Assembly: GCA_965113315.1 (NCBI GenBank)
Contig: OZ220369.1
Strand: one strand, 5' to 3'
DNA length: 64,000 bases
Source: Podarcis vaucheri
Taxonomy: Eukaryota
Shown here: positions 4,082 through 52,200 of the stretch, one piece after another
How positions within the stretch are numbered: the first letter of the stretch is position 1
Layout: each line of letters starts with the position of its first letter
Notes under the pieces: model-generated
Seen by the model: the letters and a program-made list of their open reading frames with translations, nothing else
What the model was told of the DNA's origin: nothing
The model's database searches: none
Position numbers and translations under genes: made by a program

Positions 4082-4295
4082 GGGTTAGGTACTTAATTCG
4101 TTCTGTAGGTCCGTTCTTAACCTGAAACTGTTCTTAACCTGAAGCACCACTTTAGCTAATGGGGCCTCCCGCTGCCGCTGAGCCGCCGGAGCACGATTTC
4201 TGTTCTCATCCTGAAGCAAAGTTCTTAACCTGAAGCACTATTTCTGGGTTAGCGGAGTATGTAACCTGAAGCATATGTAACCTGAGGTACCACTG
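4082..4295. mobile_element. Tc1/mariner (pogo/Tigger-like) MITE, one end truncated
   Basis: Near-identical to the complete copy at 41824-42049; ends gaggtaccactg followed by TA. Confidence 0.8.
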
Positions 4296-4539
4296 TATTG
4301 GCTCAATGAGTGTGAATTAGGTACCCCCCCCAATTAAAATGCAAGCAAAATTTAATTTTCCCCTCATCCCTACTGTCCCCATTTGGTTGACCAGGAAATG
4401 AATAGTCACAGGGGTCTTAACCCCGTGCTAGAAATAACATTCTGCTCTAGCAACCAGGATCCCTGATGCCGCAGAACCAAGAGAAATGTAACTCAGCAAG
4501 AGGAAGAAAAGGCACTGGTTAAATGCACCGAATGTAGTG

Positions 4540-4683
4540 NNNNNNNNNNNNNNNNNNNNNNNNNNNNNNNNNNNNNNNNNNNNNNNNNNNNNNNNNNNNN
4601 NNNNNNNNNNNNNNNNNNNNNNNNNNNNNNNNNNNNNNNNNNNNNNNNNNNNNNNNNNNNNNNNNNNNNNNNNNNNNNNNNNN
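4540..4683. other. Assembly gap (144 N)
   Basis: Run of n. Confidence 1.
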
Positions 4684-7576: not shown

Positions 7577-8489
7577 ACTGTGTGAAGACGGCACAGCGCC
7601 ACCCACATCCCATCTGTAGTACCCATAATATTATGCTCATTGACAAGCAGGGACGGAGAAAGGGTGGGGGTGGGGGCGGATCACCCCGGGTGTCACCAGT
7701 GGGGGGAGTGACGCGGTGGCTTCGGTGCCCACAGGCTCCGCACTGCCACAAATGGTCCGTCTCCCGCCTCTCCCTCAGCAGTAGGGTGGCTGAGTGGAAG
7801 GAAGCAGGCAGACTCCTCGGAGGTCCTGCGGAGTATCCTGCCCTGGCTGGCCCCGCCAGGTGCCTGATCGGCTTACTCCACTGCTATTGACAGGTCAACA
7901 TTCTTATATGCTATGGAATGAACATTATGAAATTTTTAAGGCTCATAGGGAGTTTATTAAGTAGAAAGTGCCTATCATACATATGTTATAGAAATAAATG
8001 AAAACAGACAAATGGATTTCTTGTCAATTCATAGCATTCATTTCTATCCACTTTTTCTTCAACTCTGCTTCTGAAAACTGGGTTTGTGAAATAGATATTC
8101 TACTTTAGACTGATCACGAAAATTTGGCATACAGATCAAATTTCCTTCTAGGCATAGTTTGGGTGAGACAATATAAATGAATGTCATAATCCTCTAATGT
8201 CTACGATCCCCATATGCATAATTGCTTATGTAATGGAACCTTATGGTGGCACATACTGATAAATTGCAAGGGCATTGTTTGAAATCTTAATGCTGAAATA
8301 GCTGTATGCAGGGAGCTCAAAGTAGATCATGAAATTATTTTTCTAATGCTAACTTATCACCAATGTGGTTCTTGGTTTAAATAATGGGGTGCTTAGGGGT
8401 TGTTTTTTATGTGAAAGTTAAGCAAACAAGAAACATCGTGTTTGAAAAGAATAAATGCATCAGAGAGTCAAATTCCCTAGCTTGCCATC

Positions 8490-8844
8490 TGTGGGAAAAT
8501 GATTGCTTGTACATAAGAGCATGAGCAGAGTTCTTATTATCGCAGAGTGATTTTACAGCACGAGATATTGTTAAGAGCTTGATGAGCATGTGAACACCTC
8601 ATGCTAGACTAAATGATTGGCTCACGTAGCATAGTACTCTCTTTGTCTGCGGGCAAGAGCAAGGTTGCATTCCTTTGATTGTTACTTTTGAGTACCAGGC
8701 AGAGCAAGCGCTGTGCTGGAGGAGAGAGGATGAATTTTTTTACTGCGCACAATAAACATTGCATGGCAAAAGCCAAAGCTTTTTCTTCAAGTCATCTTGG
8801 TGTGAGACTGATTTTCTTACTGATGTCGAGCTGCCTTCTCGACA
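8490..8844 (+). repeat. 5' LTR
   Basis: tgtggga...ctcgaca; AATAAA at 8751-8756; no differences from 3' LTR seen by eye. Confidence 0.95.
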
Positions 8845-8846
8845 TT

Positions 8847-8861
8847 TGGTGCCCCGTGTGA
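8847..8861 (+). promoter_or_regulatory. Primer binding site, complementary to elongator tRNA-Met 3' end
   Basis: TGGTGCCCCGTGTGA 2 nt after the LTR; vertebrate tRNA-Met(e) ends ...TCACACGGGGCA-CCA (recalled); 15-nt match. Confidence 0.75.
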
Positions 8862-9199
8862 CTGCCTTCGGACTTCACGTTGTTTTTCATTATTCAGCAC
8901 TCACCAACACGTCGTTCATCCACGTAGTGGATCCCTGGTGAGTGCTCCCGTGTGATTTCTTTTGGATTTCATGCTGTTAAACAACGTTCAGCCTCACCTC
9001 GCCTGGCAAGGGCTGCAGACGCGTCGTTCATCCACGTAGTGGATCCCTGGTGAGAGCTCCCGTGTGAATGTGATTCTGGACTACGTTACGGACTTATCAG
9101 CACTTACTTCCGCCCGGACAGGGCAAAAAGGCGCCTCCCTCATCCTCCTAAGGATCCCTCCGGTAAGTGCTCCCTGCTCTTTTTGCAACTCTTGCAATC

Positions 9200-10255
9200 A
9201 TGGGAAAGTCTCTCTCTGCACCACAGAAAAAATTTTATAAAGACCTTAAATTCCTTTTGGCCAGTAACAACCTTGCTGTTCGGAAAGCTGACCTTAAGTC
9301 CCTTATAAAAGCCCTGGACACTCACTGCCCCTGGTTCCCCCAGGACGGAAATTGGGAGTTAGACGATTGGAAAAAAATTGGACACTTCTTTCAAAATCAT
9401 CCTCAGATTGATGTCAAGGTTTTGCATGCCTGGAGTAACGTCTACAAAGCTATGTCGTGTTTAACTCCTTCAAACATTCTTCTGGCTGCTGCAACAACTT
9501 CTTCGCCCGCCCTCCCCGCTCCCGCTTTGCCTGCCTCAAACCTACCTCCTAAACCGCCGGACATTTTCCCTTCGGCTCCTCCTGTCACTCCCCTGCATTC
9601 TTCAAATTCTGCAGCACCCCCCACTCTTCTACCTCCTCCACCCAAGGCATTTGGCACCGCTCCTACAATTCCTCTTCAAAGATCTCTCTGTGCCACCGCT
9701 CCGTTGCTGCCTTTTGATTCTGATACTCCAAATCTCTTTCCTGTGATTGCTCCTGCACCCTCAGCCCCCGTCATGCTGAGCCAAACCGATGTTCTCGATG
9801 GGCTGACGGGAGGAGGAAATTTTCTTCCTATTGCCCAACAGTTGGTCCTTGATCCTATGTATTGGGCAGCCACCACAGCCTCAGCCCAAGAGACTTTGGC
9901 CTCTGTCCCTGATGACAAGACTGAGCGCAATGGCCGATGGGACAGCATCAGACAGGGCCCTGCAAAGCCCTATGGACAATTTGTTGATCGCTTGTATAAT
10001 ACCTTCAAGCGGCAAGTTCAGGACCTGGCAGCACAAGAACTGACTGTACGCCAGCTTGCGTTTGCTAATTCAAATGAGGACTATAAGCAAGCACTGAGCC
10101 TTCTAATGGCAACATCAAATATAGCCATTGCTGATATGCTTAAAGCCTGCCAGTCAGTGGGCACTGCTAGCCACGGCCTGCTAGCCACGGCCTGGTCCTC
10201 CTCCGTGTCCCAAATTCCTGCAAAGGATAAAACCTGTTGGCTTGACAGTGGCTAA
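9200..10255 (+). CDS. gag: Internally deleted beta-like Gag, 351 aa (MA, Pro-rich late region, partial CA; no NC)
   Basis: MGKSLS myristoylation motif; beta-type MA CPWFPQDGNWELDDWKKIG; two PSAP late motifs; MHR IRQGPAKPYGQFVDRL; LAFANSNED..; MLKACQSVG; no CCHC knuckles. Confidence 0.88.
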   Translation: MGKSLSAPQKKFYKDLKFLLASNNLAVRKADLKSLIKALDTHCPWFPQDGNWELDDWKKIGHFFQNHPQIDVKVLHAWSNVYKAMSCLTPSNILLAAATTSSPALPAPALPASNLPPKPPDIFPSAPPVTPLHSSNSAAPPTLLPPPPKAFGTAPTIPLQRSLCATAPLLPFDSDTPNLFPVIAPAPSAPVMLSQTDVLDGLTGGGNFLPIAQQLVLDPMYWAATTASAQETLASVPDDKTERNGRWDSIRQGPAKPYGQFVDRLYNTFKRQVQDLAAQELTVRQLAFANSNEDYKQALSLLMATSNIAIADMLKACQSVGTASHGLLATAWSSSVSQIPAKDKTCWLDSG

Positions 10256-10520
10256 GGAAAAAATCCAGCGGACTTTACCCATTACGTACCTGGGACACAA
10301 GCTGACAGCATCTGCACCCATTCCAGTTACGCCTCAACTACAGTTTCCTGGTTATCTTAGATTGGTGGATTTACAACAAATTCTTGGACAGCTGAATTGG
10401 ATAAAGAGTTATTTGGACCTGCCCACCTCCACTTTGTCTCCACTATTTTCTGCCCTTAAAGGACACAAGAATCCAGCGGACAAGATCACAATCACCTCTG
10501 CAATGGAAGAGGCTCTTCCA
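10239..10520 (+). pseudogene. pol: pol remnant: RT palm end and thumb
   Basis: GLTVAKEKIQ..P..YLG and LVDLQQILGQLNWIKSYL, typical of class II RT; YxDD region and protease absent. Confidence 0.85.
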
Positions 10521-10639
10521 CAGCTGTTCCAGTGTTTCCTGGCACGCTGAAAGGCCATCTTCATCACTACTGCATTGGCCCCCTTTTCCCTGGGAAGCCA
10601 CTTCAACCACCAAACATCATTACAGTTTTGCTGCCTCTT

Positions 10640-10750
10640 GTTTGGGAAGTGAGCCTGGCTTTGAAAGATGTCCTTGCTGGACTGGCATCGCTTGGGTTTT
10701 GCCTCCTAATAGCAACCATCCCATCTGTGTCACCACGCTTCATTGGGCTT
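10640..10750 (+). pseudogene. Possible integrase C-terminal remnant
   Basis: TGIAWVLPPNSNHPICV resembles the beta IN C-terminal GxAxVxP..PxWV pattern; weak match. Confidence 0.35.
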
Positions 10751-11319
10751 GGACTTTTGACTCAGCAGCACAAGGAGCAATACATGAGACTTATTTACAG
10801 CAAATGGGCTCCTGTATCTGCAGAAATGGTTGTGTGACTTCTTCTGGATTGTGGTTTTTACATGCCAATAATCGAGCCATGAAATATCACACAGGTTGCT
10901 CGGAAGTGGCCTTTGGACTAATTTACCATTCTCATCCTTATTGGCATCACTTGGATTTTACCCCCCAGATTTTTTTCTCCTCCTCCCTCAGGAGTCCTGC
11001 CTTATGATGTGGTCCCCTGAGCATGTACAGAGGGTTATCTTGGAACTATTGTGGACTCTTGGCAAGGGAGGGGGTGAGGGGATTTAAGTGTGTTCCAGTT
11101 GTTTCATTTTTGTGCTTTGGCATGGTTCCCGGACAGAAAGCAAGTTGCAATATGGTTCTTTAGCAAGGCCTACGAAGACAATGGGCTCTGTTCTCGACCT
11201 TGTTGCAATCTTTTTAGTTACAGCAAGCGGAATATGCTTGGCTATTGCCTTTTAGCTGCTGAGAAAAATGATTTTGAAAAGCTTTAAAAAGCTTTGAGCT
11301 TTTTTTTTTGGTGGTGGTA

Positions 11320-12110
11320 TTCTAGCATTCCAGTAAATGCTTCATTTAAGATTAGCAATAATATGAAGGACAATCATACAAGTTCACCTCCTGTGCCTTT
11401 ATCGCTTCTTGAAATAGCGTCTCTTTGTTTTTGTTTTAATCATAATAGCAATAAATTTTTAGGTCATTATCCATATTGTAATTGGACCTATGAGTATGTT
11501 AATGGATCTTCTTGTTTTCTTAATGTTACCACTATGAGTGGTAGGCCAAAAGTCTCAGTTACTTATGTCACAACCTATATGACTTATGAACAACAGGCTA
11601 CATGTATAGATTTTTATGCTTGGTTGGACTGGATGAGAAAGAGCAGTAAATCTGCATATTTGCTTCAATCTGATTTAGGGTTATTCTGTGGCAAATTGGA
11701 CCGAAGCTTTGTTTTTAATTCTATCATCTTTGTTTTAAAAATAATTAACAAAAAAACAAAAAAAAAAGTCAGAAATGAGAGAAGTTGATTTATAAATTTT
11801 TTATGCTTTAAATGTAATCTTTGCCTCTAAAGGTGGAATTTATGTCTTAATTCATTTTCATTGTTGTATGTATATAACTGATCAATCAACCAATATCTCT
11901 GCTATTATTGATTATATGGAACAAATGATAACCCATAATCCTTTGAATCCACCTGAAGGTTTTGATCCATGGGATTGGTTATTTTCTTGGTTACCTAATG
12001 GCTTATGGTTAAGAAATTTATTATTGATTGTAATTGCGTGTATTGTTGATTTTATTATGATGTACTGATTGTATTCAATGCTTGCTTTTTTTTGATTTCC
12101 CAATGTATTG
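11320..12110 (+). pseudogene. env: Decayed env: SU fragment and gamma-type TM
   Basis: N-glycosylation sequons and Cys residues (NWT, NGS, NVT); from 11772 EMREVDL*IFYALNVIFASKGGIYVLIHFHCCMYITD (degenerate ISD, Y-x6-CC for CX6CC); Trp-rich DPWDWLFSWLP and hydrophobic anchor. Confidence 0.75.
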
Positions 12111-12226
12111 CATGGTGGTACCGACCACGGCCCACCACAGGGATTACAAGGGGAAATTATGTTGCAAAATATAAACGCTTAGGTAATGGGAATGCAATTC
12201 TGATTAAGGGTCCCTCTAATAATATA

Positions 12227-12243
12227 AACAAGAAAAGAGGGCG
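12227..12243 (+). promoter_or_regulatory. Polypurine tract
   Basis: aacaagaaaagagggcg immediately before the 3' LTR. Confidence 0.8.
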
Positions 12244-12598
12244 TGTGGGAAAATGATTGCTTGTACATAAGAGCATGAGCAGAGTTCTTATTATCGCAGA
12301 GTGATTTTACAGCACGAGATATTGTTAAGAGCTTGATGAGCATGTGAACACCTCATGCTAGACTAAATGATTGGCTCACGTAGCATAGTACTCTCTTTGT
12401 CTGCGGGCAAGAGCAAGGTTGCATTCCTTTGATTGTTACTTTTGAGTACCAGGCAGAGCAAGCGCTGTGCTGGAGGAGAGAGGATGAATTTTTTTACTGC
12501 GCACAATAAACATTGCATGGCAAAAGCCAAAGCTTTTTCTTCAAGTCATCTTGGTGTGAGACTGATTTTCTTACTGATGTCGAGCTGCCTTCTCGACA
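12244..12598 (+). repeat. 3' LTR
   Basis: Copy of 8490-8844; AATAAA at 12505-12510; followed by TSD gccatc. Confidence 0.95.
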
Positions 12599-13055
12599 GC
12601 CATCTTTGGTGGCAGGTATATGTGGAAATTCACCAGTCAGGTTAAGTAAAAACCCTTAGGTACCTTTTAGGGTAAATGGCTTAGTCAGAGACGTGTGGGA
12701 GAGAGAAAGGGGGGGGGAGGGAGAGAGAGAGAGAGATTTTCCATGCAGTTATTGACATAAGCATATACAAAATGCAGTAAGAATGATGAGTGTAACAAAT
12801 AAAAAAATAGAAACAGAAAATGAGAATACAGATGGGAGGAGGAAACCAGGAAACAACTGAGAATGCAATGCTACATACAATGCTACATACTAGCACCTAT
12901 CCCATAAGAAGAAAAAGTTGAGTCAATTTAGTTCTCAATAAAGTCTCACCACATATTTATCTGCAAAGCAGGGGGTTTAGTTGCCTGTGCAGTTGAGTTA
13001 AAATAGGAGAAAAACTTATACCATGTCAAATTGAAGTGGTCTGTTTTTGACAAAC

Positions 13056-16555: not shown

Positions 16556-18220
16556 TCAGAACACTCCTGACATATGGTTGTCAAGCCTCTGCTTAAAGAC
16601 CTCCAAAGTAGGAGACTCCACCACACTCCTTGGCAGCAAATTCCACTGTCGAACAGCTCTTACTGTCAGGAAGTTCTTCCTAATGTTTAGGTGGAATCTT
16701 CTTTCTTGTAGTTTGGATCCATTGCTCCGTGTCCGCTTCTCCGGAGCAGCAGAAAACAACCTTTCTCCCTCCTCTATGTGACATCCTTTTATATATTTGA
16801 ACATGGCTATCATATCATCCCTTAACCTCCTCTTCTCCAGGCTAAACATGCCCAGCTCCCTTAGCCGTTCCTCATAAGGCATCGTTTCCAGGCCTTTGAC
16901 CATTTTGGTTGCCCTCCTCTGGACACGTTCCAGTTTGTCAGTGTCCTTCTTGAATTGTGGTGCCCAGAACTGGACACAGTACTCCAGGTGTGGTCTGACC
17001 AGAGCAGAATACAGTGGCACTATTACTTCCCTTGATCTAGATGCTATACTCCTATTGATGCAGCCCAGAATTGCATTGGCTTTTTTAGCTGCCGCGTCAC
17101 ACTGTTGGCTCATGTCAAGTTTGTGGTCAACCAAGACTCCTAGATCCTTTTCACATGTACTGCTCTCAAGCCAGGTGTCACCCATCTTGTATTTGTGCCT
17201 CTCATTTGTTTTGCCCAAGTGCAATACTTTACATTTCTCCCTGTTAAAATTCATCTTGTTTATTTTTGCCCAGTTCTCTAATCTGTCAAGGTCGTTTTGA
17301 AGTGTGATCCTGTCCTCTGGGGTGTTAGCCACCCCTCCCAGTTTGGTGTCATCTGCAAATTTGATCAGGATGCCCTTGAGTCCATCATCCAAGTCGTTGA
17401 TAAAGATATTGAATAAGACCGGGCCCAAGATAGAACCCTGTGGCACCCCACTAGTCACTCTTCTCCAGGATGAAGAGGAACCATTGATGAGCACCCTTTG
17501 GGTTCGGTCAGTCAGCCAGTTACAAATCCACTGAGTGGTAGCATAGTCAAGACCGCATTTTACCAGCTTCTTTATAAGAATATCATGGGGCACCTTGTCA
17601 AATGCCTTGCTGAAATCAAGGTAGGCTACATCCACTGCGTTCCCTTCATCTACCAGGCTTGTAATTCTGTCAAAAAACGAGATCAGGTTAGTCTTACATG
17701 ACTTATTTTTCAGAAATCCATGCTGACTATTGGTGATCACAGCATTCCTTTCTAGGTGCTCACAGACTGTTTGCTTAATGATCTGCTCCAGAATCTTCCC
17801 TGCTATTGATGTCAGACTGACTGGGCGGTAATTATTTGGGTCCTCTCTTTTCCCCTTTTTGAAAATAGGGACAACATTTGCCCTCCTCCAGTCTGCCGGG
17901 ACTTCGCCTGTTCTCCAGGAATTCTCAAAGATGACTGCCAGTGGTTCTGAGATCACATCTGCCAGTTCTTTTAATACTCTTGGATGCAGTTCATCTGGCC
18001 CTGGAGACTTGAATACATCTAAACTAGCCAAATATTCTTGTACTATCTCCTTAGTTATTCTGGGCTGTGTTTCCTTTGCTGAATCATTTGCTCCAAATTC
18101 TTCAGGTCGGGCATTGTTTTCTTTATCGGAGAAGACTGAGGCAAAGAAGGCATTGAGGAGTTCAGCCCTTTCTGTGTCCCCTGTTTGCATTTCACCATCT
18201 TCTCCTCTGAGTGACCCCAC
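16556..18220 (-). CDS. CR1 ORF2, reverse transcriptase part
   Basis: [56 protein letters not shown]; 554 aa without stops. Confidence 0.92.
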
Positions 18221-18375
18221 TGTTTCTTTGTTCTTCCTTTTGCTGCGAACATACCCATAAAAGCCTTTTTTGTTGCTTTTAACCTCTCTAGCAAGCCTGA
18301 GTTCATTCTGTGCTTTAGCTTTTCTGACTTTGTGTCTACACGTGCTGGCTATTTGTTTGAATTCCTCTTTGGTGC

Positions 18376-19185
18376 TTACCCCCCCCCTTTTCCATTTTTG
18401 TACACATCCTTTTTTAATCTTAACTCAGTTAAAAGTTCTTTAGATAGCCACCCTGGCTTCTTTAGGCACCTTCCATGTTTCCGTCTCATTGGTATTGCCT
18501 GACGTTGTGCTTTTAGTATCTCCCTCTTAACAAACTCCCAGCCATCATGAACTCCCTTTCCTTTTAGTATTGTTGTCCATGGGATCTCACCCAGCACTTC
18601 CCTAAGTTTTATGAAGTCGGCTTTCTTAAAGTCAAGAAATTGAGTCCTAGTATGCTTGGCTGCTCCTTTCCGCTGTATAGTAAACTTCAGAAGAGCATGA
18701 TCACTCGCGCCTAATGATCCTTCCACTTCTACCCCACTAACCAGGTCATCAACATTGGTTAGGACCAGATCTAAAATGGCTGTTCCTCTTGTTGCTTCTC
18801 CCACTTTCTGGACAATGAAGTTGTCTGCAAGGCCAGTGAGGAATCTGTTTGACCTTATGCTCTTGGCTGAGTTTGACGTCCAACAAATATCCGGGTAATT
18901 GAAGTCCCCCATTACTACTATCTCCCTTCCTTTTGCATGCTTGGCCATCTGTTCCAGGAAGGCATCATCTATGTCCTCCGTTTGGCTTGGGGATCTATAG
19001 TAAACTCCCACAATGAGGTCTCTGTTATTCTTCTCTCCCTTAATTTTGACCCAAATGCTCTCACTTTGGCTTTGAGGATCTAAATCTTGGATCTCTTCAC
19101 AGGTATACACATCCCTGACATATAACGCCACTCCTCCTCCTTTCTTGTCTGGTCTGTTTCTCTGAAATAGATTGTATCCCCCCAT
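18376..19185 (-). CDS. CR1 ORF2, APE endonuclease part (5'-truncated, frameshifted from RT part)
   Basis: [39 protein letters not shown] motifs. Confidence 0.88.
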
Positions 19186-20844
19186 AAATGAAATTTATGA
19201 AATCCCCCCTAATGAAATTTCTTTTCTGATTTATTGAGAGAGAATGGTTGGAGAATGGTGGGGGACACAGAAGGAATTTTCACTAATTATTACTGCCAAC
19301 AGCAGCATAGTGTCAAGAATTTTAGTCCCCTGCTCCAATTGACTTTGAAAAACACACCCATGAGTAAAATTAAGGAAAATCCAAGGGGCAGAAAGTCAAT
19401 CTGAATAATGCCAGATTCTCCATGGCATGTCCTTTTTGGATGTAAACAATAATGACACAACAAGATATGTGCAGCTTGGACCCCCTGTGAGACAATTACA
19501 AACAGCACATTTTTTGACATGTTGTACCATATGTTGGAAACATTTGCTTTCCTCAAGCAAGGCGTCTGACCTGATCCCTGCCATGAAACAGCACCGAGGG
19601 TAGAAGTTTGGTGTCATTTGAATATCAAGAGACCTAAGATATATATTAAATGAAGCAGTTGACAACTTCAAGTAAAATGTAATCTCATTTTTCCCCTTCA
19701 TCTGGTCAATAATAAATGAGTTTTAGAGCTTAAATCAAGACACAAAGGGTTTCTCATGGTACATTATTGATAGAGCACACTTAGTCTAACAACATTTTTC
19801 CAAGGGAAAAAATGTATTATTTACTGCCTCTGTTAATACAAAGCCCAACATAAATAAATAGATTGCCTTTATCTTTTAAAGGAAGAAATCACTTTGAATA
19901 TTCTGTAGGGTGTATTTTAGGAAGGTTGCAGAAGAGAATTACATTTTAAAAAAACTGATTTACTACCCTAATAACTGAAATACGGAGTTTGGCTTTCTGT
20001 TTGTGTGTTTGCTTTCTACACTTGGCAGTCAAATGTAGCTCTTGATATGGTCTCAGTGTCAATAATGGATGCAGCAAGTAACAAGCAAGGTTGCTTTTTG
20101 CAAAGCACTGGGAAAAAAATACATTTCTTTGTTGTAAGAAAATTATCTGGACATTGTAGTAGAAACTGCAATCGTCAGATATAGTGTTATGAAAGTGCAT
20201 TGGCAGGATTTCTTGAAATAAACCACCAATATCGATACACTTGAAAATTATTTTCTTTGTGGCTTCCTCTTACTTTCTAATAATGACTTTGCAGGGTCAG
20301 ACACAAACCATGTTTAAGTGACACAGTTATTGTCATCTCCATGCCTACATCTGCACCTCTAGAAATATGTATTGAAATATGTATTGATTTGTTTTGGATG
20401 TTGTCTGTGATGCCAATAAAGGTTTTACGATATAAGCTCTTACTCTTATGTCAGAAACGGGAGACTGGTCCTTGGGTATGTCCCCAGGCCACACATTCTC
20501 CAAAACCATGCCCATTACAGTTCTCCCTTTGCATACTCCTTGTTTTTGCTTGGCTGGAATCTGACCTTGATGTTAGCTGAGGTTTCTTGTCTGTCTGGAT
20601 GGAAGCTAGAGAGGGATATGTGAGTATGAAAAAAGCAGTCCAGTGTTCAAAAGTAAGATTCACATTGATTGTTCCTCCCACTTGTTCTTCTGTCCTTGCC
20701 CAGCACTGGCATGTCCCCCCCCCCAACAGTTTGCATAGAGGAAAATTTGGCCTTTGGGCTAAAAAAAAGTATTTGGGCTAAATTTGGCTAAAAAAAGGTC
20801 CCCCAACCCCTGAATAATGTGATATCTCTTTGGGTCTGGTTTAC

Positions 20845-22911: not shown

Positions 22912-22997
22912 CTAACTTAGTTGGTCTTTAAGGTGCTACTGGAAGGAATTTTTTTATTTTGACTATGGCAGACCAACACGGCTACCTATCTGTAACT
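22912..22997. mobile_element. Penelope-like element terminal fragment
   Basis: Reverse complement nearly identical to 49021-49104; agaagcaa repeated on both flanks. Confidence 0.7.
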
Positions 22998-23204: not shown

Positions 23205-24270
23205 ACAGAAGTAAGCCATGTCCTGTGTGCGTGTCTGGAGGCGCTTGGAGGATGGATGGCATCTAACAGATTGAGGTTGAATTCTGACAAGACGGAAGTA
23301 CTTTTCTTGGGGGGCAGGGTGTGGGCGGATGCGAGGGACTCCCTGGTCCTGAATAGGATAATTGTGCCACTGAAGGACCAGGTGTGGAGCCTGGGAGTCA
23401 TTTTGGACTCACAGCTGTCCATGGAGTCACAGTTCAATTCTGGGTATAGGGCAGCTGTCTACCAGCTCCATTTGGTATGCCAGCTGAGACCCTACATGTC
23501 TGTAGACCAGGGGTTGTCAGCCTGGTCCCTACCATCCACTAGTGGCTGTTTCAGGATTCTAGGTGGGTGATAGGTGGTTCTACTGCACAAGCTGAATCCT
23601 CCTCCATCAAGCGCTGGTGGGCAGTAAGGAAATTTTACCAACAAGAAAGATGTGTTAGTGGCGGTAGGTATAAAAAGGTTGACTACCCCTGCTGTAGACT
23701 GTCCGCCAGAGTGATTATCTGGTTATCACCCACTTACATTACTGCAATGTGCTCTATGTGAGGCTAACTTTGAAGGTAACCTGGAAACTACAACTAATCC
23801 AAAATGTGGCAGCTAGACTGGTGACTGGGAGTGGCCGCCGAGACCATATAACACCAGTCCTAAAGGATCTTCACTGGCTCCTAGTACTTTTCAGAGCACA
23901 TTTCAAAATGTTGGTACTGACCTTTAAAGTCCTAAATGGCCTTGACGCATTATACCTGAAGGAGCATCTCTGCCTCCATCATTCAGCCCAGACACTGGGG
24001 TCCACTTCTAGCAGTTCCCTCACTGCAAGAAGTACAGTTACAGGGAACCAGCGAAGGGGCCTTCTCAGCAGTGGAACACCATCCCGTCAGATGTCAGGGA
24101 AATAAAGAATTACACAACTTTTAGAAACATCTGAAGGCAGCCCTGTTTAGGGAAGTTTTAAATGTCTGACATTTTATTATTTTTTAGTATTTTGCTGGAA
24201 GCCACCCAGTGTGGCTGAGGAAACCCAGCCAGATGGGTGGGGTATAAACAATTAAATTATTATTATTATA
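23205..24270 (+). mobile_element. Degraded L2-clade LINE 3' part
   Basis: WMASNRLRLNSDKTEVL, SLGVILDSQLSM, KLQLIQNVAARLV, DHITPVLKDLHWL; 3' end cagccagatgggtggggtataa(att)n. Confidence 0.85.
23508..23691. mobile_element. hAT MITE inserted in L2
   Basis: TIR caggggttgtcagcct / aggttgactacccctg (14/16); perfect 8-bp TSD ctgtagac. Confidence 0.88.
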
Positions 24271-41823: not shown

Positions 41824-42049
41824 CAGTGGTACCTCGGGTTAAGTACTTAATTCGTTCTGGAGGTCCGTTCTTAACCTGAAACTGTTCTTAACCTGAAGCA
41901 CCACTTTAGCTAATGGGGCCTCCTGCTGCTGCCGCACCACCGGAGCACGATTTCTGTTCTCATCCTGAAGCAAAGTTCTTAACCTGAAGCACTATTTCTG
42001 GGTTAGCAGAGTCTGTAACCTGAAGCGTATGTAACCCGAGGTACCACTG
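41824..42049. mobile_element. Complete Tc1/mariner (pogo/Tigger-like) MITE
   Basis: TIR cagtggtacctcgggtta / taacccgaggtaccactg; TA TSD. Confidence 0.9.
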
Positions 42050-44049
42050 TATTCATTAAACTCAATGGATCTACTCTGCCTAGCGCTTAGTGGCACACCA
42101 TCAGAAAGGTTGTATCCAATGTTAGTCCTACACAGAGTAGGCCCATTGAAATTAATTGAAAGGGCTAATTTAGGCTTATGAATTTCATTGGGTCTATTTT
42201 GAGTAGAGTTAAGATTGAATATAACCAAATGTATGTATTAGGGGGAGAAATTGCATGAAAATGCATGACTTTTTGTGTGGACTCTTTCAAAACAGATCAC
42301 AAACTGATGAGGAAATGGGGCAAACTGAATTGAAGTCGGGGTGTGTGAGAAACTGAGAAAACTCAATATTTTCTGGTATGTCCAGCCCTAGTACAAAGCA
42401 TATTCTCCTTTGGATCAATGTGTAGCTCAGGAGTGGAAAACAGAAAGTGCAATCATTGATTATCCACAGCTCATGAATGTCATAATAAGAATTATTTTAA
42501 TTAGCACTGGGGGAAGTGACTCTCGGCTCAGTTTAGAATGTGCTTGGAATTTGGCTTGCTTGGAGAGACCTTTTAAAGAAAAAAAAGCTCACATGTTCTC
42601 TGCTCATAATTTTGACACGTGCATGCTGATATACTATGAACGTTAATCACTGCTGGGGCAGTGTTGGAGAAGAACTCCTTGGGGAAACATTATTTGCTTC
42701 ATAATACATCCAAGCATTATGAGCCAGACACATTCATATTGTAAACCAAGTCATTATGAACTTCGTCAGCACCACTAATCATTAGAGTGTTTGCAATGAT
42801 CCCTAATGCCCAATGAAAAGCCTAGCCTTGTGATGAGTCTCTAGCACCGTGTAGGATCAGATTGTTTATCCAACTTGGTTGACTTCAACATGTAGAAATG
42901 GTCAAGCATCAGAGCATAAGTTGACAAAAGTAGGGTAGAAACTTTGCCTTCCTGTCTGTAATTACACAGTGACTGTATGTTACAAATTGATGCTGACAGT
43001 ATTCACATGGTTGAGTAGGACTTAAATGAGGAATCAGTCAGACTGTTGAAGGTTAAACTATTCTGATTTTCTTTAATGAAGATAGTATGTCCCATTTGTA
43101 TTTATGCACCCACAGGCCCTATTCAGCGCTCACCCCCTTGCCATCAGAAGGGGAGAATCCTGGTGACCCCATGTGTTCTTGCCTGTCACAGCAGTATATT
43201 GACAGTGCAGAATATATCTGTCTGTCTTCTCAACCGGGTGTTATTAATTAATATCTTGCTGCCTAATTAGATTTCTTTTTCCCCTTCTCATTTGAATTTG
43301 ATCTCTCAAGCACACCGTCACATTGTCGACATGCACTGTGTTCCAGAGGAGCAGAACATCTGGTAGCATATTAAGTTACTGTAGGGAAGTCAACTTTCCT
43401 GGGAGGCTCAGCACATTCAATGTGACTGCTGCAAACTTTGTGAGATGTCAGAATTTCAATCAGGCGTACAATTTGCATATAACCAGAAAATGTGGTGGAA
43501 ACATGTCCAATGCTGTTGAACATCAGTGGGGAAAACATCCATTATGCACACTGGGGAAGAGTTCCCCCCTGCAGGATTCATCTGAATGAAAAAAGCATAG
43601 ATGTGATATCATGGAATTAAATTTCAGAATGCAGGTCAAGATAAGAGGCTCCTCCCATTCAATTGATTTGTTCAAAATGTTTCCACGAGAGCCTATAGGG
43701 CATGCATACAAAAATCTGCAGCTTACATTGAAAAACTGGTACTTCATTCCAATAAAGTGCAATAATTTGAAACTGAAGTTTGAAACATTTCACAGTTCAA
43801 CAACACACTAAAATTAAAGATCAAATCTTTAAATAAGGAGCAATAGCAACTCTTAAAACTCAGATATTCAGCTCAGCATCTCAGCTCAACTGGATTTCAA
43901 GGCCCGATTATGGGGGGCATCACTGAAAAGGGGGTCCATAAGCAGAGTCTAGGAGCTATTCCTAAGGCCTGGCAGGGTTGATACAGGTTAAGGAAGGTCT
44001 ATAGATGAAGGCTAGTCCATATACCCACTTAGGGGTTTAAAATGTAATA

Positions 44050-46062: not shown

Positions 46063-46939
46063 TATTGTAGAAGAAATTTACTCTGAAATGTTAGTGAATT
46101 TTGATGCGGACTTTTTTCTTTCTTTCTTTTGAATTGTAGACTGATGGGGAATTACGGAGAACTGAACAGATTCTCAGAAAATGAGATATGGAAATTGACA
46201 GATTTGTACATCCCTACTTAAGCATATGGTTAAACTGTTTCCACAGAAATGTGCAGGAAATCCAGGAAGGCCATTGATCCTTGTAACTCGGCATTTCTGA
46301 TGGATGTAATTTTCAGCCTAAACTGGAGATGCCAATGAATGGACCTAGGGCTCTCCTGCATGTAAAGCATGCACCACTGGCCTACAGTCTTAGGCCACTT
46401 GAGAATGAAAAATGTTTCACATCAACATGATTGTGGCCATAATTCATTTCCAGCAATTTATAATGCAACTTGGAAAATGTGAAGGGGAAATCTTTATAAA
46501 GGGTACAACCAATAAGCTGAGTAACAGCGGAAGGTGCCTTTTCTCGCCTGGCAAGATTAAACACGTGCTTATGGATACACAGCATCTGACCTTACAACAG
46601 CCATTCTTGTAAATGTTACTGAGATGCTAATATTGTTTCAATTAAATAAAAATTAAAGCTCAGAAAATATCACAAAAGGGTAATCTAATATTTGATCATT
46701 AATAGGCTTATGCAAAGGAATATTTGCACAAGCATTTTCAGAAATGGTCAATTCCAATGTTTTATTCTGCTTTTCATGCCTTTTCTTTTTCGGCTTTTCC
46801 CTGTCAGGGGTTTTACATTTTCTTGGTCTATAATTTTCAGGGAGTTTTTGAGAAGTTGGGGGGGGGGGAACCAAAGGTGCACCCAAATGACAACCAGTGT
46901 GTACTAAACAAACAAACAAACAAACAAACAGGCATAATC

Positions 46940-47075
46940 CAGGCATAGGCAAACTTGGCCCTCCAGATGTTTTGGGACTACAACTCCCATCATCCCTAGC
47001 TAACAGGACCAATGGTCAGGGATGATGGGAATTGTAGTCCCAAAACATCTAGAGGGCTGAGTTTGCCTATGCCTG
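46940..47075. mobile_element. Palindromic hAT-type MITE
   Basis: caggcataggcaaact...gggactacaactcccatcatccct / mirror arm ...agtttgcctatgcctg; imperfect 8-bp TSD; degenerate relatives near 15845-15980, 38065-38200, 63020-63145. Confidence 0.8.
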
Positions 47076-49020
47076 GCCTAATTAATCCTAAAGGGCCCAT
47101 ACTGATCAAAAGGAAAAAGGAAAACAAAGGGGAAGGGCCACCATTTATAGGCAACTCATTCCCTCAACTCTGTTGGTCAGTCTCGGCCGTGTGAATGGAC
47201 CCCTTCCCCTTGGAATGAAGTCATGTGAGTTTATGCTTGGGAATGATGTTAACCCTTGGGTTTGTCAGTTAAATGACATCAGAATATCCCAGGAACTGCT
47301 CCATCCATGCCTTTGCCACACTATGCTGGTGCCACACCACCCTGGTTTCTTGCTAGACTTCCTGCCTGCAACTAGCATCCCTTGTTCCTTTGCTGACTTT
47401 ACCTGCCTGACAGAGGCAACTATCAGTGCATAAATTGTCATTTGTCTGTTAGCTGGCAGATAATTTGTTTTAAAGAATTGCAAAGTTCAAGACACAGAAT
47501 TCCAGCTGTTTTGCCTTTCTTATTACTGTTTCCTGTCAATTCCAATCATTAATTGTCCCTCTGGAAGTACTGCTGGCATTGTTTGCTTGAGCCAGAATTT
47601 TTTTTGAAAAGAACTTTCAGCTCAGTCCTAATTTTGGAAAGATGACAATTAATTCTTGGGATGGTCCTGCACTTCCCATTTATGTTGCCTTACAATTGAG
47701 ATTGCAAAAAGGATCCTTGTTTCAAAGAAACTGGTTTTCTAAACTTTGTAAAATACTAACAGTGTGATGAGCTTTAGAATTAAGATAGCAATGTAGTAAC
47801 CTCTGAATTGTTTTGCTGAGCTTCCAAATTGTAAAATGTGCTTGGAAAATTATGAGACTAGACATATTAGTTTACAGGTCCCAGTGCTTAAGTGCACGTA
47901 CATCCCATGAAGATAAGTTGCCTTCAATGTTGTCAACAAAGTAACTGGGTAATTTTGAAAATAGACATTACAGATGATTTATGATATTTGCCAACTTTCA
48001 TAAATTCACCAGAAAATGCTTTTGTTTCATGTTTTCTTATTGCTTTTTTATAGACCTATGTAGATATCAAAATTTGATGCAGACATAAAAATGTCAAGGA
48101 AAGCAAGGGGCATAAGGGAGTCCTCAGATCTTAAATTATTAACTTTTCAATCTTGCAGGTATATGATAACCCTAAATTACATGCTAAAGCTCACAAGAAG
48201 GAAAAGAGGCATTTCATAAAACAGAAATGTATACTATCTACCTGCAGATCCTTGTTTCTTTAAAGTGGACATCCTGAATGCATTGAGAAGGTTGCCAGGG
48301 GCGGGGCAGGGGAAGCAACAATAAGTATAAAGTAGAAGAGGTAGAATCAGATTAAATTTGTAGGCATAGTAGCATCTTCTGATGTGATAAATTCCACAAA
48401 ATTTTAGGATGGCTACAGTTGTTTTCATTTAAGTATAGCCTTTACAATTCTGGAGTGTTTTGGTTTTTTTAAGACAATTCACTTAATCTCTTCTATTGCT
48501 TTATGGGCAATTTGTAGGAATTTATATGGAAATGGCAAACATCACAGAGGTCCATCTATTTTTGTTTGTTTGTTTTTCAAGGGAGGGGAAACTGCTAAAT
48601 CACAAAAGAAACAAACCTTGGGACTTTGGGACTAGACACCTTTAAAACTGGGCTAGACATTTTTAAAGTGCATTTTTGAGGATGAAGAAAAACTAAAAGA
48701 AATTCATTTATTGCCATGTGTGTTTGTGGGTAATGATTTTATTATAAACATTGGATGCATTGTAGAGGTGTTACTAGGAAATTAACCTGCCAAATTTCAG
48801 AAGGAGGGGTACAGGAGCTAAGGTGTTATGATGAATGTGGGGAGGGATCAGCTTTAGGCCTGTGCTCTGTTCAATTGGCACTGAAAGTCACAAAAACTTA
48901 CTGCAAATATTTGACAGAAGTGGATGTGTAAGAATGTGGCAGAGGCAGAAGAGCTTGAATGTCCAGCATTTTCCCGAGCAAACACTACTAAAAGAATTAC
49001 TAACATTACATATTTTAAAA

Positions 49021-49230
49021 TTACAGATAGGTAGCCGTGTTGGTCTGCCATAGTCAAAATAAAAAAATTCCTTCCAGTAGCACCTTAAAGACCAACTAAG
49101 TTAGTTCTTGGTATGAGCTTTCGTGTGCATGCACACTTCTTCAGATATCTGAAGAAGTGTGCATGCACACGAAAGCTCATACCAAGAACTAACTTAGTTG
49201 GTCTTTAAGGTGCTACTGGAAGGAATTTTT
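49021..49230. mobile_element. Penelope-like element remnant forming a perfect 168-bp palindrome (49063-49230)
   Basis: gtagccgtgttggtctg...agcaccttaaagac...atgagctttcgtg...cttcttcagat|atctgaagaag..., sauropsid PLE terminal motif in inverted arrangement. Confidence 0.8.
49146..49181 (+). ncRNA. Minimal hammerhead ribozyme core (mirrored on the minus strand)
   Basis: CTGAAGA-A-[GTGTG CATG CACAC]-GAA-AGCT-C; palindromic AGCT replaces stem III; stem I is only 3 bp (tat/ata). Confidence 0.55.
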
Positions 49231-52200
49231 ATAGTTTAAAATGTTTTTAAAAAATGAGTGATCAAGCTTCCCAGTTTCTCCTTTAGCATACAAGCTAGAA
49301 TAAATAATAATATCTTTCTCAAATTGTCTTTGCTGCTAGTATCGGAATCTCTGGCACTATATGTGCATCAAATCTCAGCTTTCTAGGTCAAGTGGAAGGA
49401 CCCATACTATTTTGATGCTCCATTGAGAGAATTGATAAATGAGGCTCAACCATCTTGATAAAGATAATTGTTCTCATTATTTGTTACAAAACAAAGAAAC
49501 CCCAAAGCACAAAGATTGGCTTCTAGCTACCCCATGTGGGAGCACGCACATTGTCCCCAAGTTACACAAATACATTTGCAGCTACACTGATTTGATTCGT
49601 GATTTTTGGCCAACTGCAAACCAGGTGTCTGCCTCTGGGATATGATATTTTTTAAAAGAAAGATTGGCTCAATCAAACCAATTAAAATCTAGGCAAAGCA
49701 GAAAATTGCATGTTTTTATCTATTCTGTTGCAGAGCAGGTTCCATCTGCCTGCAGACTTCATTCAGGCGACCTCTGTGTGGGCATTTGTCATATTTTTTT
49801 TAATATACATTGCATCGAGGCAGTGTCCATTTCGACTACATCGAATTGTCTCCATCCCCACCTCCTTTGGATTCAGCCAGGGGTTTTCGAGCCTTATGAA
49901 AACACAGTGATTGTTTGTTGGAACACATCCTGCCACAATTTATTCAGTTGAAAATCCATTTTTCATCTATGACTTGGACAAAAGAAGGCATGTCAAAATG
50001 AACCAAGAAACACATCAACCAGTCATTTTGAAACAATGCAGGATGTATACAAATGGGAGAGAGAGAGAGAGAGCCTGCTCATCTGTATGCCCTGTCCTTT
50101 TTATCCAAGATGTTTGAGAACTGGCTTGGTTTCCCCTTTCTCATTCAATGGGCCCTGTGCCATTTTGCCACCTGAAACAAAATGTGCTCCCTCCATGCTG
50201 GGGCCAACACTCTTAAAAGTCGTGTTGTACTACTCAAACACTAGCTTCTGCCTTCATACTGTATATCCCACTACCACCACAATGCCCTGGGTGCAAAAGG
50301 TGGGACTCTGTTACAATGTTTTAGTTTATCATTAATTTAGTTTGTAACACAGCTTTCTGTATATAGCATCTAAGCAGGACTATTTGAACAGGGGCAGGCA
50401 GGTCAGGAGATATGGAGCAGGTGTACAATACATTGTTTTGTTGCCCTACTATTTTGTTGCAACCTGCCCAGTACAGGATTAGCCAATTGCAATCAGGGCT
50501 GAGTAGGATTTTTTTAAGCATCCCTAATTAGCACCTTGGGATGACTCCTCCCACCTTGCCTGCCTATTCTGCACTGTTCTGGAGGGTATAATTAATTTAG
50601 CTTAATTTGCTGTTACTGGAGAGCATCAAGTTGGCTATCCTTGATCTTGTCTAAAATGGGGAAAAAATAGATGCCTGTAACTATGCAATGGAAAAGCAAA
50701 GTATTGTTTATTTTTTATCCGATTTTTGATGTCACCATGCAAATCCTAAATTAGAAAGTTCCCCTTGCACTTCAGTGATTTTTAAAAATGTTTCTTTATC
50801 TGACAATAGTTGCTGTTGTTAATAGCCAAGAGAATTGCAGGCAAAGTGTAAGAAATAATGCATGGGTTTCTTGCATGTACCAGTTAATCTTATGTCTTGT
50901 GGGGAAAGCAGCGTCTTAACCCTTTTATAACTCAAAGTCTAAGAAGACTGCCACTTAAGTTTGTACTATGTTTTGACTCCACAGTTTCTTTTGGCTGAAA
51001 TCCTATGCATATTTACATAGAAGTATGTCTCACTGAACTCAATGGAGCTTACCCCTGAGTAGACATGTATAACTCATTGCTCTGTCAGTTTACAATGGCC
51101 ATATTCACACCCTCTGCTCTCTTCCCTCATTTTCAAAGACTTTTTTTAAAAAATGCTGTCTACCTTAGCTCTTCTATGCCAGATTTCTGCCTAAAGCAAA
51201 ATTGTAAGGCTGATTTATAAATACATTGATGAATCCAGCTGCAAACGTCTTGTGTAATTTAATATGCAAAAACTAATCTGACTCATGCATGTTGACAGCC
51301 TTCCCTGGGTTACCAGCAAGTCAGTCAGCTTTAAGTTTTGATTTTCCTTCTGCTTTAAAGTCTCCTCTCCTGAAGGAGCAAGACTTATGCCCTGAAGCTA
51401 AATAGGTTTGGCATAGATCTATACACCTTCTATTTCCACTTATCTCCCGAGCTGGCTCTCCAAGTGACTTAGCTCCCTTAAAATAATATGTGTGTTTTCC
51501 CAGAAAGATACATATAAAATTATATCATGGGTAGTTTCTTAGAGCAAAGGGAATCTGTAATATTTCTTATATGTTATGAAGGGATGGGAAAGTAAATTGG
51601 ATAATGTTTCATTGGAAGAAATGTTATCATTCCTTCACAGGGGACAATAGACTGGGTCTCTCCCTTGGAAAGCATTGACATTGCCTTGAAACCAATTGTG
51701 ATGGCACCACCACAATCCTAAAACATTTAGCATTTTTATCCCTGTTAGCTTGGTAAATTCTTCATGTTTAAAGCTAATAATGTGTAGTAGCATGACTAAT
51801 ATGATCCTTTAATTGGATATCTCTCTTCTTTTTGACAGTAGAGAATGAAAATCCTTGAACATCTTATTTAGTTTGTATTAGCAAATATGGAAGTTGCGCA
51901 TAGATATGGTGAGTTTACATGTTGCTGTCATTAAACATTTCCCAGTGCATTCCAGATATATTTAGGTAGGTTGAACAATCTGCTTCCACATGAGCTTGCT
52001 GCAAGAGACAGGGCTTTTTCAGCGGTAGCACCTGACTTTAGAACCACCACCTTAGGAAAGTTGGCCTCGAATCGTAGACAGTGTCACTTAGTCTTGTTTT
52101 CTCAATCTTTCAATGAATAGCAGTTGCTTTTACACCTTTATTGGGTTTTGCTGGACATAAGAAGAGTCTGCTGGACCAGTGGAAGTCTGTTTCCAGAAAC

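What the first reader, a model, noticed from the sequence alone, without database searches (positions are those of the whole stretch)
8490..12598. Young non-autonomous beta-like provirus: identical LTRs around an old, gutted internal region
Seen: the two 355-bp LTRs show no difference by eye and the 6-bp TSD is perfect, pointing to very recent integration. Yet the interior lacks NC, protease, the RT catalytic core, RNase H and nearly all of integrase, and env carries a stop and motif-destroying substitutions. Established: LTRs are identical at integration, and deleted elements such as mouse ETn are mobilised in trans by intact relatives. Inference: the decay happened in a progenitor, and this 4.1-kb form still moves as a parasite of an intact helper virus. 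This could be an undescribed lizard helper/parasite retroviral system.
Basis: partly seen in the sequence, partly recalled or inferred. Interest (0 to 1): 0.8.

Follow-up and report, generated by a model that had tools for sequence, protein, structure and literature searches.

The report
Gutted lizard provirus, recently re-inserted
A broken-down retrovirus copy in a wall-lizard-like genome cannot copy itself, yet it was inserted recently, most likely by borrowing enzymes from intact relatives, a parasitic strategy already known from mice, cattle and koalas.

Summary
The LTRs are 355/355 identical, the 6-bp TSD is perfect, and a Met-type PBS and a PPT are present. The interior keeps partial Gag, the RT thumb and broken Env. 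It belongs to a Podarcis class II (ERV-K-like) family with gamma-type env.

Three deletion junctions each recur in a different, diverged Podarcis protein record. The 3' coding remnants carry 9-15% private substitutions, so about 27 LTR differences would be expected from decay in place.

New here: the element is a mosaic. Gag residues 1-138 match a young subfamily (MA 98-99%), and the rest follows older defective lineages. This fits template switching between co-packaged RNAs.

Not shown:
- a second copy of this exact 4.1-kb form;
- an intact helper at one locus (only gene models and a 23-member Env cluster);
- present-day mobility (identical LTRs bound the age only to about 1.4-4.2 My or less, at assumed rates).

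Gene conversion remains a rival. Verdict: a new lizard member of a known kind (ETn/MusD, recKoRV, bovine D-type ERVK). Ten literature searches listed no description of it.

The parts
8484..8489 (+). 5' target-site duplication (6 bp)
8490..8844 (+). 5' LTR, 355 bp, TG...CA; AATAAA at 8751; no canonical TATA box found
8847..8861 (+). Primer-binding site; first 15 of 18 nt match the tRNA-Met PBS printed in PMC1084362 Table 2
8862..9199 (+). CpG-rich leader with a 49-nt duplication (8907-8955, 9019-9067, 96%) and a degenerate third unit; each unit has a splice-donor-like motif (8929, 9041, 9152); packaging signal presumed, not shown (fold z = -1.2)
9200..9620 (+). Young 5' gag: matrix and proline-rich region; MA 98-99% identical to P0001-P0005
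9621..10255 (+). Older 3' gag in the same 351-codon ORF: in-frame capsid-NTD deletion at 9757/9758 (shared with P0011), capsid CTD, first Cys of NC, junction into RT at 10238/10239 (shared with P0006), stop at 10253
10239..10505 (+). RT remnant: end of palm and the thumb; 89% identical to P0014 918-997; no YMDD
10506..11326 (+). Family-shared middle segment of unresolved identity: 10508-10585 matches the N-terminus of P0016, 10804-10947 matches the N-termini of P0015/P0017; weak hint of the env start at 11024-11131; CpG o/e 0.21
11327..11692 (+). Env SU internal fragment (76-84% identical to Podarcis relatives); deletion junction at 11692/11693 shared with P0015
11682..12190 (+). Gamma-type TM remnant with frameshifts, a stop at 11793 and no CX6CC motif; membrane span and cytoplasmic tail recognisable
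12230..12243 (+). Polypurine tract abutting the 3' LTR
12244..12598 (+). 3' LTR, identical to the 5' LTR
12599..12604 (+). 3' target-site duplication (6 bp)

Best explanation
This is a helper-dependent, recombinant defective provirus of a Podarcis class II (ERV-K-like) family with gamma-type env.

Steps:
(1) Older germline copies of the family lost parts of gag, pol and env and accumulated substitutions. Shown: shared junctions and private branches.
(2) RNA of such a defective copy, which kept its LTR, PBS, leader and PPT, was co-packaged with RNA of a young relative. Inferred.
(3) Reverse transcriptase supplied in trans switched template within gag near codons 138-147, giving a young leader and matrix on an old, gutted body. 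The mosaic is shown; the mechanism is inferred.
(4) Reverse transcription regenerated two identical LTRs, and integrase supplied in trans inserted the DNA with a 6-bp TSD within the last few million years. The LTR identity and TSD are shown. The need for trans enzymes follows from the absence of PR, the RT core, RNase H and IN.

Whether this exact 4.1-kb form has been copied more than once is open.
For: - 355/355 LTR identity, perfect TSD, PBS and PPT.
- No PR, RT core, RNase H or IN.
- The capsid junction is shared with P0011, and the NC/RT junction with its alternative-frame tail with P0006. The env junction, with its out-of-frame continuation and four shared derived SU residues, is shared with P0015. 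P0006, P0015 and P0017 lie on contigs of different lengths.
- Private substitutions: 11/129 in capsid (0-5 in each of the 11 Podarcis relatives), 11/122 in SU and 13/84 in TM, against 1/96 in MA. In-place decay predicts about 27 LTR differences, P(0) about 2e-12.
- Recombination break between residues 138 and 147: 31:1 versus 6:14 informative sites, 0/300 permutations.
- CpG o/e is 0.63 in the 5' part against 0.27 in the 3' part, with flanks at 0.20-0.25 (Fisher p = 0.004).
- Relatives with the missing parts: P0014 with all Pfam domains and the DTG and YMDD motifs; P0008/P0009 with full-length Gag; P0017, a cluster of 23 members with CXXC, furin site and CX6CC.
- The young-flank, old-centre pattern is described for bovine, mouse and koala defective ERVs (PMC10924933 section 20).
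Against: - No record carries more than one of the three shared junctions, so no second copy of this structure was found.
- All relatives are predicted proteins, and gene models can contain artificial introns. P0014 itself apparently skips the RT connection and the env start, so it does not prove an intact helper.
- The 3' end of env is not near-identical to any known relative, so the young-flank pattern is shown only on the 5' side.
- P0011 versus P0006 gave no significant break (74/300), and the Gag trees were poorly resolved.
- The CpG contrast could partly reflect native viral composition.
- The open Gag ORF is not evidence of selection: 19-43% of neutral simulations stay stop-free.
- The host species of the window was not determined, so relatives may come from a different Podarcis species.
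Confidence: 0.75

Rival explanations
1. An old provirus decayed at this site. Its 5' LTR, leader and matrix were later overwritten by ectopic gene conversion from a young relative, and the two LTRs were homogenised. The gutted element never moved.
For: The young segment is contiguous from the 5' LTR to about gag codon 140, as a conversion tract would be. The 3' interior has host-like CpG depletion.
Against: It needs at least two independent conversion events covering both LTRs completely. The TSD is still perfect. Deletion junctions shared with other loci show that defective lineages did spread. One reverse-transcription event explains everything.
Confidence: 0.13
2. Assembly artefact: the LTRs were collapsed or polished to identity, or the interior was joined from different family copies.
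For: The window has a scaffold gap (4540-4683), the family is multi-copy, and the element is a mosaic.
Against: Matching TSDs tie both ends to one integration, and both 500-bp flanks are unique in the window. Hiding about 27 differences by polishing is unlikely. No gap lies near the element.
Confidence: 0.07
3. A complete young provirus was inserted and then degraded rapidly in place, or was hypermutated during reverse transcription (APOBEC-like editing).
For: G>A is the commonest inferred class in most regions.
Against: C>T is comparably common (TM 6 vs 5 against P0017), with many other classes. Matrix and LTRs are spared. The deletion junctions exist at other loci.
Confidence: 0.03
4. A LINE-mediated processed copy of a viral RNA.
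For: A near-intact CR1-like LINE lies 4 kb away, so LINE machinery has been active in this genome.
Against: Both LTRs are complete and identical with TG/CA ends, the TSD is 6 bp, and there is no poly(A) tail. Processed copies lose the 5' U3 and 3' U5 (PMC6114882 passage).
Confidence: 0.01

Closest known systems
Bovine ERVK[2-1-LTR] D-type / C-type pair (PMC10924933; passages and section 20 read)
   Same: Class II defective element without functional genes; keeps LTRs and parts of gag and env; recombines with family members; young flanks around an older centre.
   Different: The bovine D-type is shown to be multi-copy (85% of elements), polymorphic and de novo mobile. None of that is shown here. 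The centre here comes from older deleted lineages of the same family.
Mouse ETn/MusD, IAP I-delta-1/IAP and VL30/MLV (PMC6466679 passages; PMC10924933 section 20)
   Same: Non-autonomous LTR elements retaining cis signals and moved by a competent relative.
   Different: ETn has only traces of retroviral homology, and MusD and IAP lost env. This element keeps an open 351-codon partial Gag and env remnants, and its relatives have intact-looking gamma-type Env.
Koala recKoRV/KoRV-A (via PMC10924933 section 20 only)
   Same: Recent recombinant of a young virus and an old degraded element, complemented in trans.
   Different: recKoRV is gammaretroviral (recalled). Here the young segment is shown only at the 5' end.
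PyERV and avian class II ERVs with gamma-type env (PMC3758190 passages)
   Same: Beta-like gag-pol with gamma-type env in a sauropsid.
   Different: No sequence comparison with PyERV was made. PyERV is not described there as non-autonomous.
Podarcis predicted proteins P0001-P0011, P0014-P0017 and Zootoca P0018-P0020
   Same: Same ERV family (Gag 62-90%, RT 89%, SU 74-84% identity).
   Different: They are unannotated gene models. None shows the window's full combination of deletions.

Membership tests
Integrated LTR provirus | Two LTRs with TG...CA ends, TSD, PBS, PPT | tested here: met
Class II (beta-like) ERV | Gag and RT closest to ERV-K/betaretroviral proteins | tested here: met
   Pfam Gag_p10, Gag_p24_C, RVT_thumb; ERV-K Gag chains lead the named PDB hits for P0008; 7sr6 is the top hit for the RT remnant and P0014 (that 7sr6 is HERV-K RT is recalled)
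Class II (beta-like) ERV | YMDD catalytic motif and two CCHC knuckles | tested here: inconclusive
   Deleted in the window; present in the 89%-identical relative P0014 (YMDD at 891, knuckles at 453 and 479)
Genus Betaretrovirus proper | RT phylogeny within betaretroviruses; dUTPase in pro | not tested
   No RT tree with reference viruses was built; Pfam found no dUTPase in P0014. 'Beta-like' is the safe label.
Gamma-type Env | SU CXXC, furin site, TM CX6CC | tested here: inconclusive
   All lost in the window; all present in relatives P0016 and P0017, whose top PDB hits are syncytins
EnvR supergroup group 1 (Podarcis Env, bioRxiv 2024.03.17.585361) | CX9CC motif in TM | tested here: not met
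   Relatives have CX6CC; the paper's group has CX9CC; its supplementary sequences were not seen
Non-autonomous helper-dependent ERV (ETn / D-type kind) | No capacity to encode PR, RT or IN | tested here: met
Non-autonomous helper-dependent ERV (ETn / D-type kind) | Integration after loss of coding capacity | tested here: met
   Shared junctions and private divergence against identical LTRs; gene conversion not excluded
Non-autonomous helper-dependent ERV (ETn / D-type kind) | Multiple copies of the same deleted structure with different TSDs | tested here: inconclusive
   Each junction recurs singly (1 of 11 Podarcis Gags for each gag junction; 1 of 7 Env hits); no record has two; no lizard DNA collection could be searched
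Non-autonomous helper-dependent ERV (ETn / D-type kind) | Coding-competent helper in the same genome with related LTR and PBS | tested here: inconclusive
   Gene models with all domains exist, but single-locus intactness, LTRs and same-genome occurrence were not testable
Non-autonomous helper-dependent ERV (ETn / D-type kind) | Insertion polymorphism or de novo mobilisation | not testable with these tools
   Needs population or pedigree data
LINE-processed ERV copy | Truncated LTRs and poly(A) tail | tested here: not met

The most novel reading that the evidence does not exclude
Wall lizards carry a currently active class II ERV family with gamma-type env. Several defective lineages swap deletion modules by co-packaging and out-replicate their helper. 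This 4.1-kb recombinant would be a polymorphic, multi-copy parasite whose open partial Gag frame aids mobilisation in cis. That would be a squamate helper/parasite retroviral system that can be followed in wild populations.
Probability: 0.3. Interest if true: 0.65.

Novelty: new member of a known kind. Interest (0 to 1): 0.45.

Why it matters
Helper-dependent ERVs are documented mostly in mammals. A young, recombining class II family with defective derivatives in Podarcis, a genus with several assemblies and well-studied populations, would extend the 'parasite of a parasite' model of ERV family decline to squamates and make it testable there. It could also supply polymorphic markers. The locus is a clear warning that LTR-LTR divergence dates the last integration, not the age of the interior. 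The mechanism itself is not new.

Tried and rejected
- Other copies or solo LTRs in the window: none.
- tRNA and Rfam scans: nothing.
- Cluster-member look-up could not be made, so accession-level locus counts are unchecked. Cluster sizes come and may include isoforms.
- Identity of the middle segment 10506-11326: no informative PDB match in any of three frames, no Pfam family, no usable Atlas hit. Codon-position patterns hint that the P0015/P0017 N-terminus is an alternative-frame reading (9 of 13 substitutions at position 1, against 9 of 25 in SU). P0016 residues 1-24 match Zootoca Env (0/5000 shuffles). The two readings, RT connection plus env leader or Env N-terminal region, remain unresolved.
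- Selection on the Gag ORF: not supported.
- APOBEC-type editing: not supported.
- Conserved leader structure: z = -1.2, 14 of 100 shuffles as good.
- Gag trees: mostly unresolved; P0011 was left out of the MA tree because it lacks half of MA.
- tRNA-Met PBS as a novelty: rejected, since HERV-K(HML-5) appears to use a tRNA-Met primer (PMC6114882 passage).
- The Podarcis Env of bioRxiv 2024.03.17.585361 is a different group.
- Host-gene context: 36 of the window's 74 long ORFs were scanned. Only a LINE and one sub-threshold hit were found.
- No vertebrate DNA collection was available; the metagenome and viral contig collections stayed unchecked.
Full report
Observation. The two LTRs (8490-8844, 12244-12598) are identical over all 355 nt, start with TG and end with CA, and are flanked by GCCATC on both sides. 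Two random flank hexamers would match with p about 4e-4. After a 2-nt spacer the PBS matches the first 15 of the 18 nt printed as the tRNA-Met PBS in PMC1084362 Table 2 (passage seen). A purine tract abuts the 3' LTR. The only N gap is 3.8 kb upstream, and no other copy lies in the window. Zero differences in 355 sites bounds the age at 1.4-4.2 My (95%) for assumed rates of 3e-9 to 1e-9 per site per year. The insertion is recent but not necessarily contemporary.

Family. The 351-aa Gag ORF (9200-10255) has Gag_p10 and Gag_p24_C domains, and a second frame has RVT_thumb. A Gag search returned 13 hits from 6053 candidates: 9 named Podarcis muralis, 1 P. lilfordi, 1 Podarcis with the species name cut off, and 2 unnamed. 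The RT remnant returned 1 hit from 158 candidates. This was P0014, a 1845-aa P. lilfordi model with MA, CA, NC, protease, RT, RNase H, integrase and Env domains. The SU remnant returned 7 hits from 45 candidates: 4 Podarcis and 3 Zootoca. Solved-structure searches put ERV-K Gag chains first among named hits for a full Gag relative, 7sr6 first for RT (recalled as HERV-K RT), and syncytins first for Env. So this is a lacertid class II, beta-like ERV with gamma-type env. That combination is known in reptiles from PyERV (PMC3758190 passages). No RT tree with reference viruses was built, and the host species of the window was not determined.

What is left inside. Against P0014 the element covers Gag 1-187 and 292-454, RT 918-997, SU 1484-1605 and TM 1676-1839, roughly 720 of 1845 residues. 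Protease, the RT catalytic core, RNase H and integrase give no significant alignment. Env lacks the CXXC region, the furin site and the fusion peptide, has frameshifts and a stop at 11793, and has no CX6CC motif. The 0.82-kb middle (10506-11326) is family DNA, because parts match the N-termini of P0016 and of P0015/P0017. Its identity stayed unresolved.

Did the decay predate the insertion? Three junctions seen in the window's DNA recur in other records. The capsid-NTD deletion is in P0011 (1 of 11 Podarcis Gags). The NC-to-RT junction, with the same alternative-frame tail and the same end point, is in P0006 (1 of 11). The SU-to-TM deletion, with the same out-of-frame continuation, is in P0015 (1 of 7 Env hits), which also shares four derived SU residues with the window. 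These relatives are only 62-84% identical and differ in their other deletions, so they are different loci, not alleles. P0006, P0015 and P0017 sit on contigs of different lengths. The window also has private substitutions at 11 of 129 capsid sites (0-5 in each relative), 11 of 122 SU sites and 13 of 84 TM sites. Converted roughly to nucleotide distance, decay in place predicts about 27 LTR differences, with P(0) about 2e-12.

A mosaic. MA is 98-99% identical to P0001-P0005 with 1 private residue in 96, while the capsid CTD is 76-84% identical to every Podarcis relative. Informative sites favour P0003 over P0011 by 31:1 up to residue 138 and by 6:14 from residue 147, with 0 of 300 permutations as extreme. 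Three other comparisons with P0003 also gave a break, at residues 191-205, each 0/300. P0011 versus P0006 gave none (74/300). CpG o/e is 0.63 over LTR, leader and 5' gag, and 0.27 over the 3' interior; flanks are 0.20-0.25 (p = 0.004). Viral base composition may contribute to this. The simplest single event is reverse transcription in a particle holding one young and one old defective RNA, with a template switch in gag (inferred). Enzymes must have come in trans. The wider family shows the same habit: in the gene models, 7 of 11 Podarcis Gags share another capsid deletion and 8 of 11 share another truncation after the first zinc knuckle. Some of these could be annotation introns.

Helper. P0014 has every domain and the DTG and YMDD motifs. 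P0008 (P. muralis) and P0009 have full Gag with both knuckles. P0017 heads a 23-member cluster with CXXC, furin site and CX6CC. These are predictions. P0014 apparently skips the RT connection and the env start (my reading), so intactness at one locus is not shown. LTRs could not be compared.

What is not shown. No record has two of the three shared junctions, so the exact 4.1-kb form may be a one-off recombinant. The open Gag frame does not imply selection: 19-43% of neutral simulations stay open. The substitution classes show no clear one-strand G>A editing. Polymorphism, expression and current mobility could not be tested.

Comparison with known systems. Trans-complemented defective ERVs are established: ETn/MusD, IAP I-delta-1, VL30, recKoRV and bovine ERVK[2-1-LTR] D-type. 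For the bovine, mouse and koala pairs, a swapped old centre within conserved flanks is explicitly described (PMC10924933 passages and section 20; PMC6466679 passages). A tRNA-Met primer is not unique among class II ERVs (PMC6114882 passage). The Podarcis Env in bioRxiv 2024.03.17.585361 is a CX9CC group and differs from this family (passages and section 6; its supplementary sequences could not be seen). Ten searches (listings only, except for the papers named above) showed no description of this Podarcis family or of a lizard helper/parasite pair. The library lacks most subscription journals, and Repbase and Dfam were not searchable.

Verdict. This is a real, recently integrated, helper-dependent recombinant provirus. 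It works like ETn, D-type ERVK or recKoRV. Membership of a multi-copy, still-active parasite family is unproven. New member of a known kind; interest 0.45.

Noticed in passing
window 16556-19194, minus strand: Near-intact LINE ORF2 (endonuclease and RT domains, about 890 aa in two frames, 5'-truncated); looks CR1-like by recall and appears young.
   Followed up: partly
window 49056-49237 (and 22912-22995): A 182-bp near-perfect palindrome (91-nt arms, 98%, no spacer) inside a repeat that also occurs at 22912; a fold-back rearrangement or an assembly artefact.
   Followed up: no
window 8862-9199: The leader has three roughly 112-nt units, each with a splice-donor-like motif; the two best units end in a 9-mer also present in the PBS.
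   Followed up: partly
window 8490-8844: The LTR has AATAAA and a reverse CCAAT but no canonical TATA box; possibly a decayed or TATA-less U3.
   Followed up: partly
P0001-P0005, P0007, P0010, P0011: Eight Podarcis Gag models end after the first zinc knuckle in one shared short tail resembling a protease active-site motif; possibly a second, larger defective lineage, or a shared annotation artefact.
   Followed up: no
P0017: A Podarcis muralis Env cluster with 23 members at 90% identity and intact motifs suggests a young env-bearing expansion.
   Followed up: partly
P0014 residues about 525-620: The stretch before the protease resembles a degenerate dUTPase by eye (recalled pattern); Pfam gave no hit.
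   Followed up: no
window 23698-24105: Sub-threshold Pfam hit (NFRKB winged helix, E 0.003, below the curated cut-off); probably chance.
   Followed up: no
window 4082-4299 and 41836-42053; 46939-47076: Short repeats with terminal inverted repeats (MITE-like); one pair is 94% identical, and the first copy lies near the N gap at 4540-4683.
   Followed up: no
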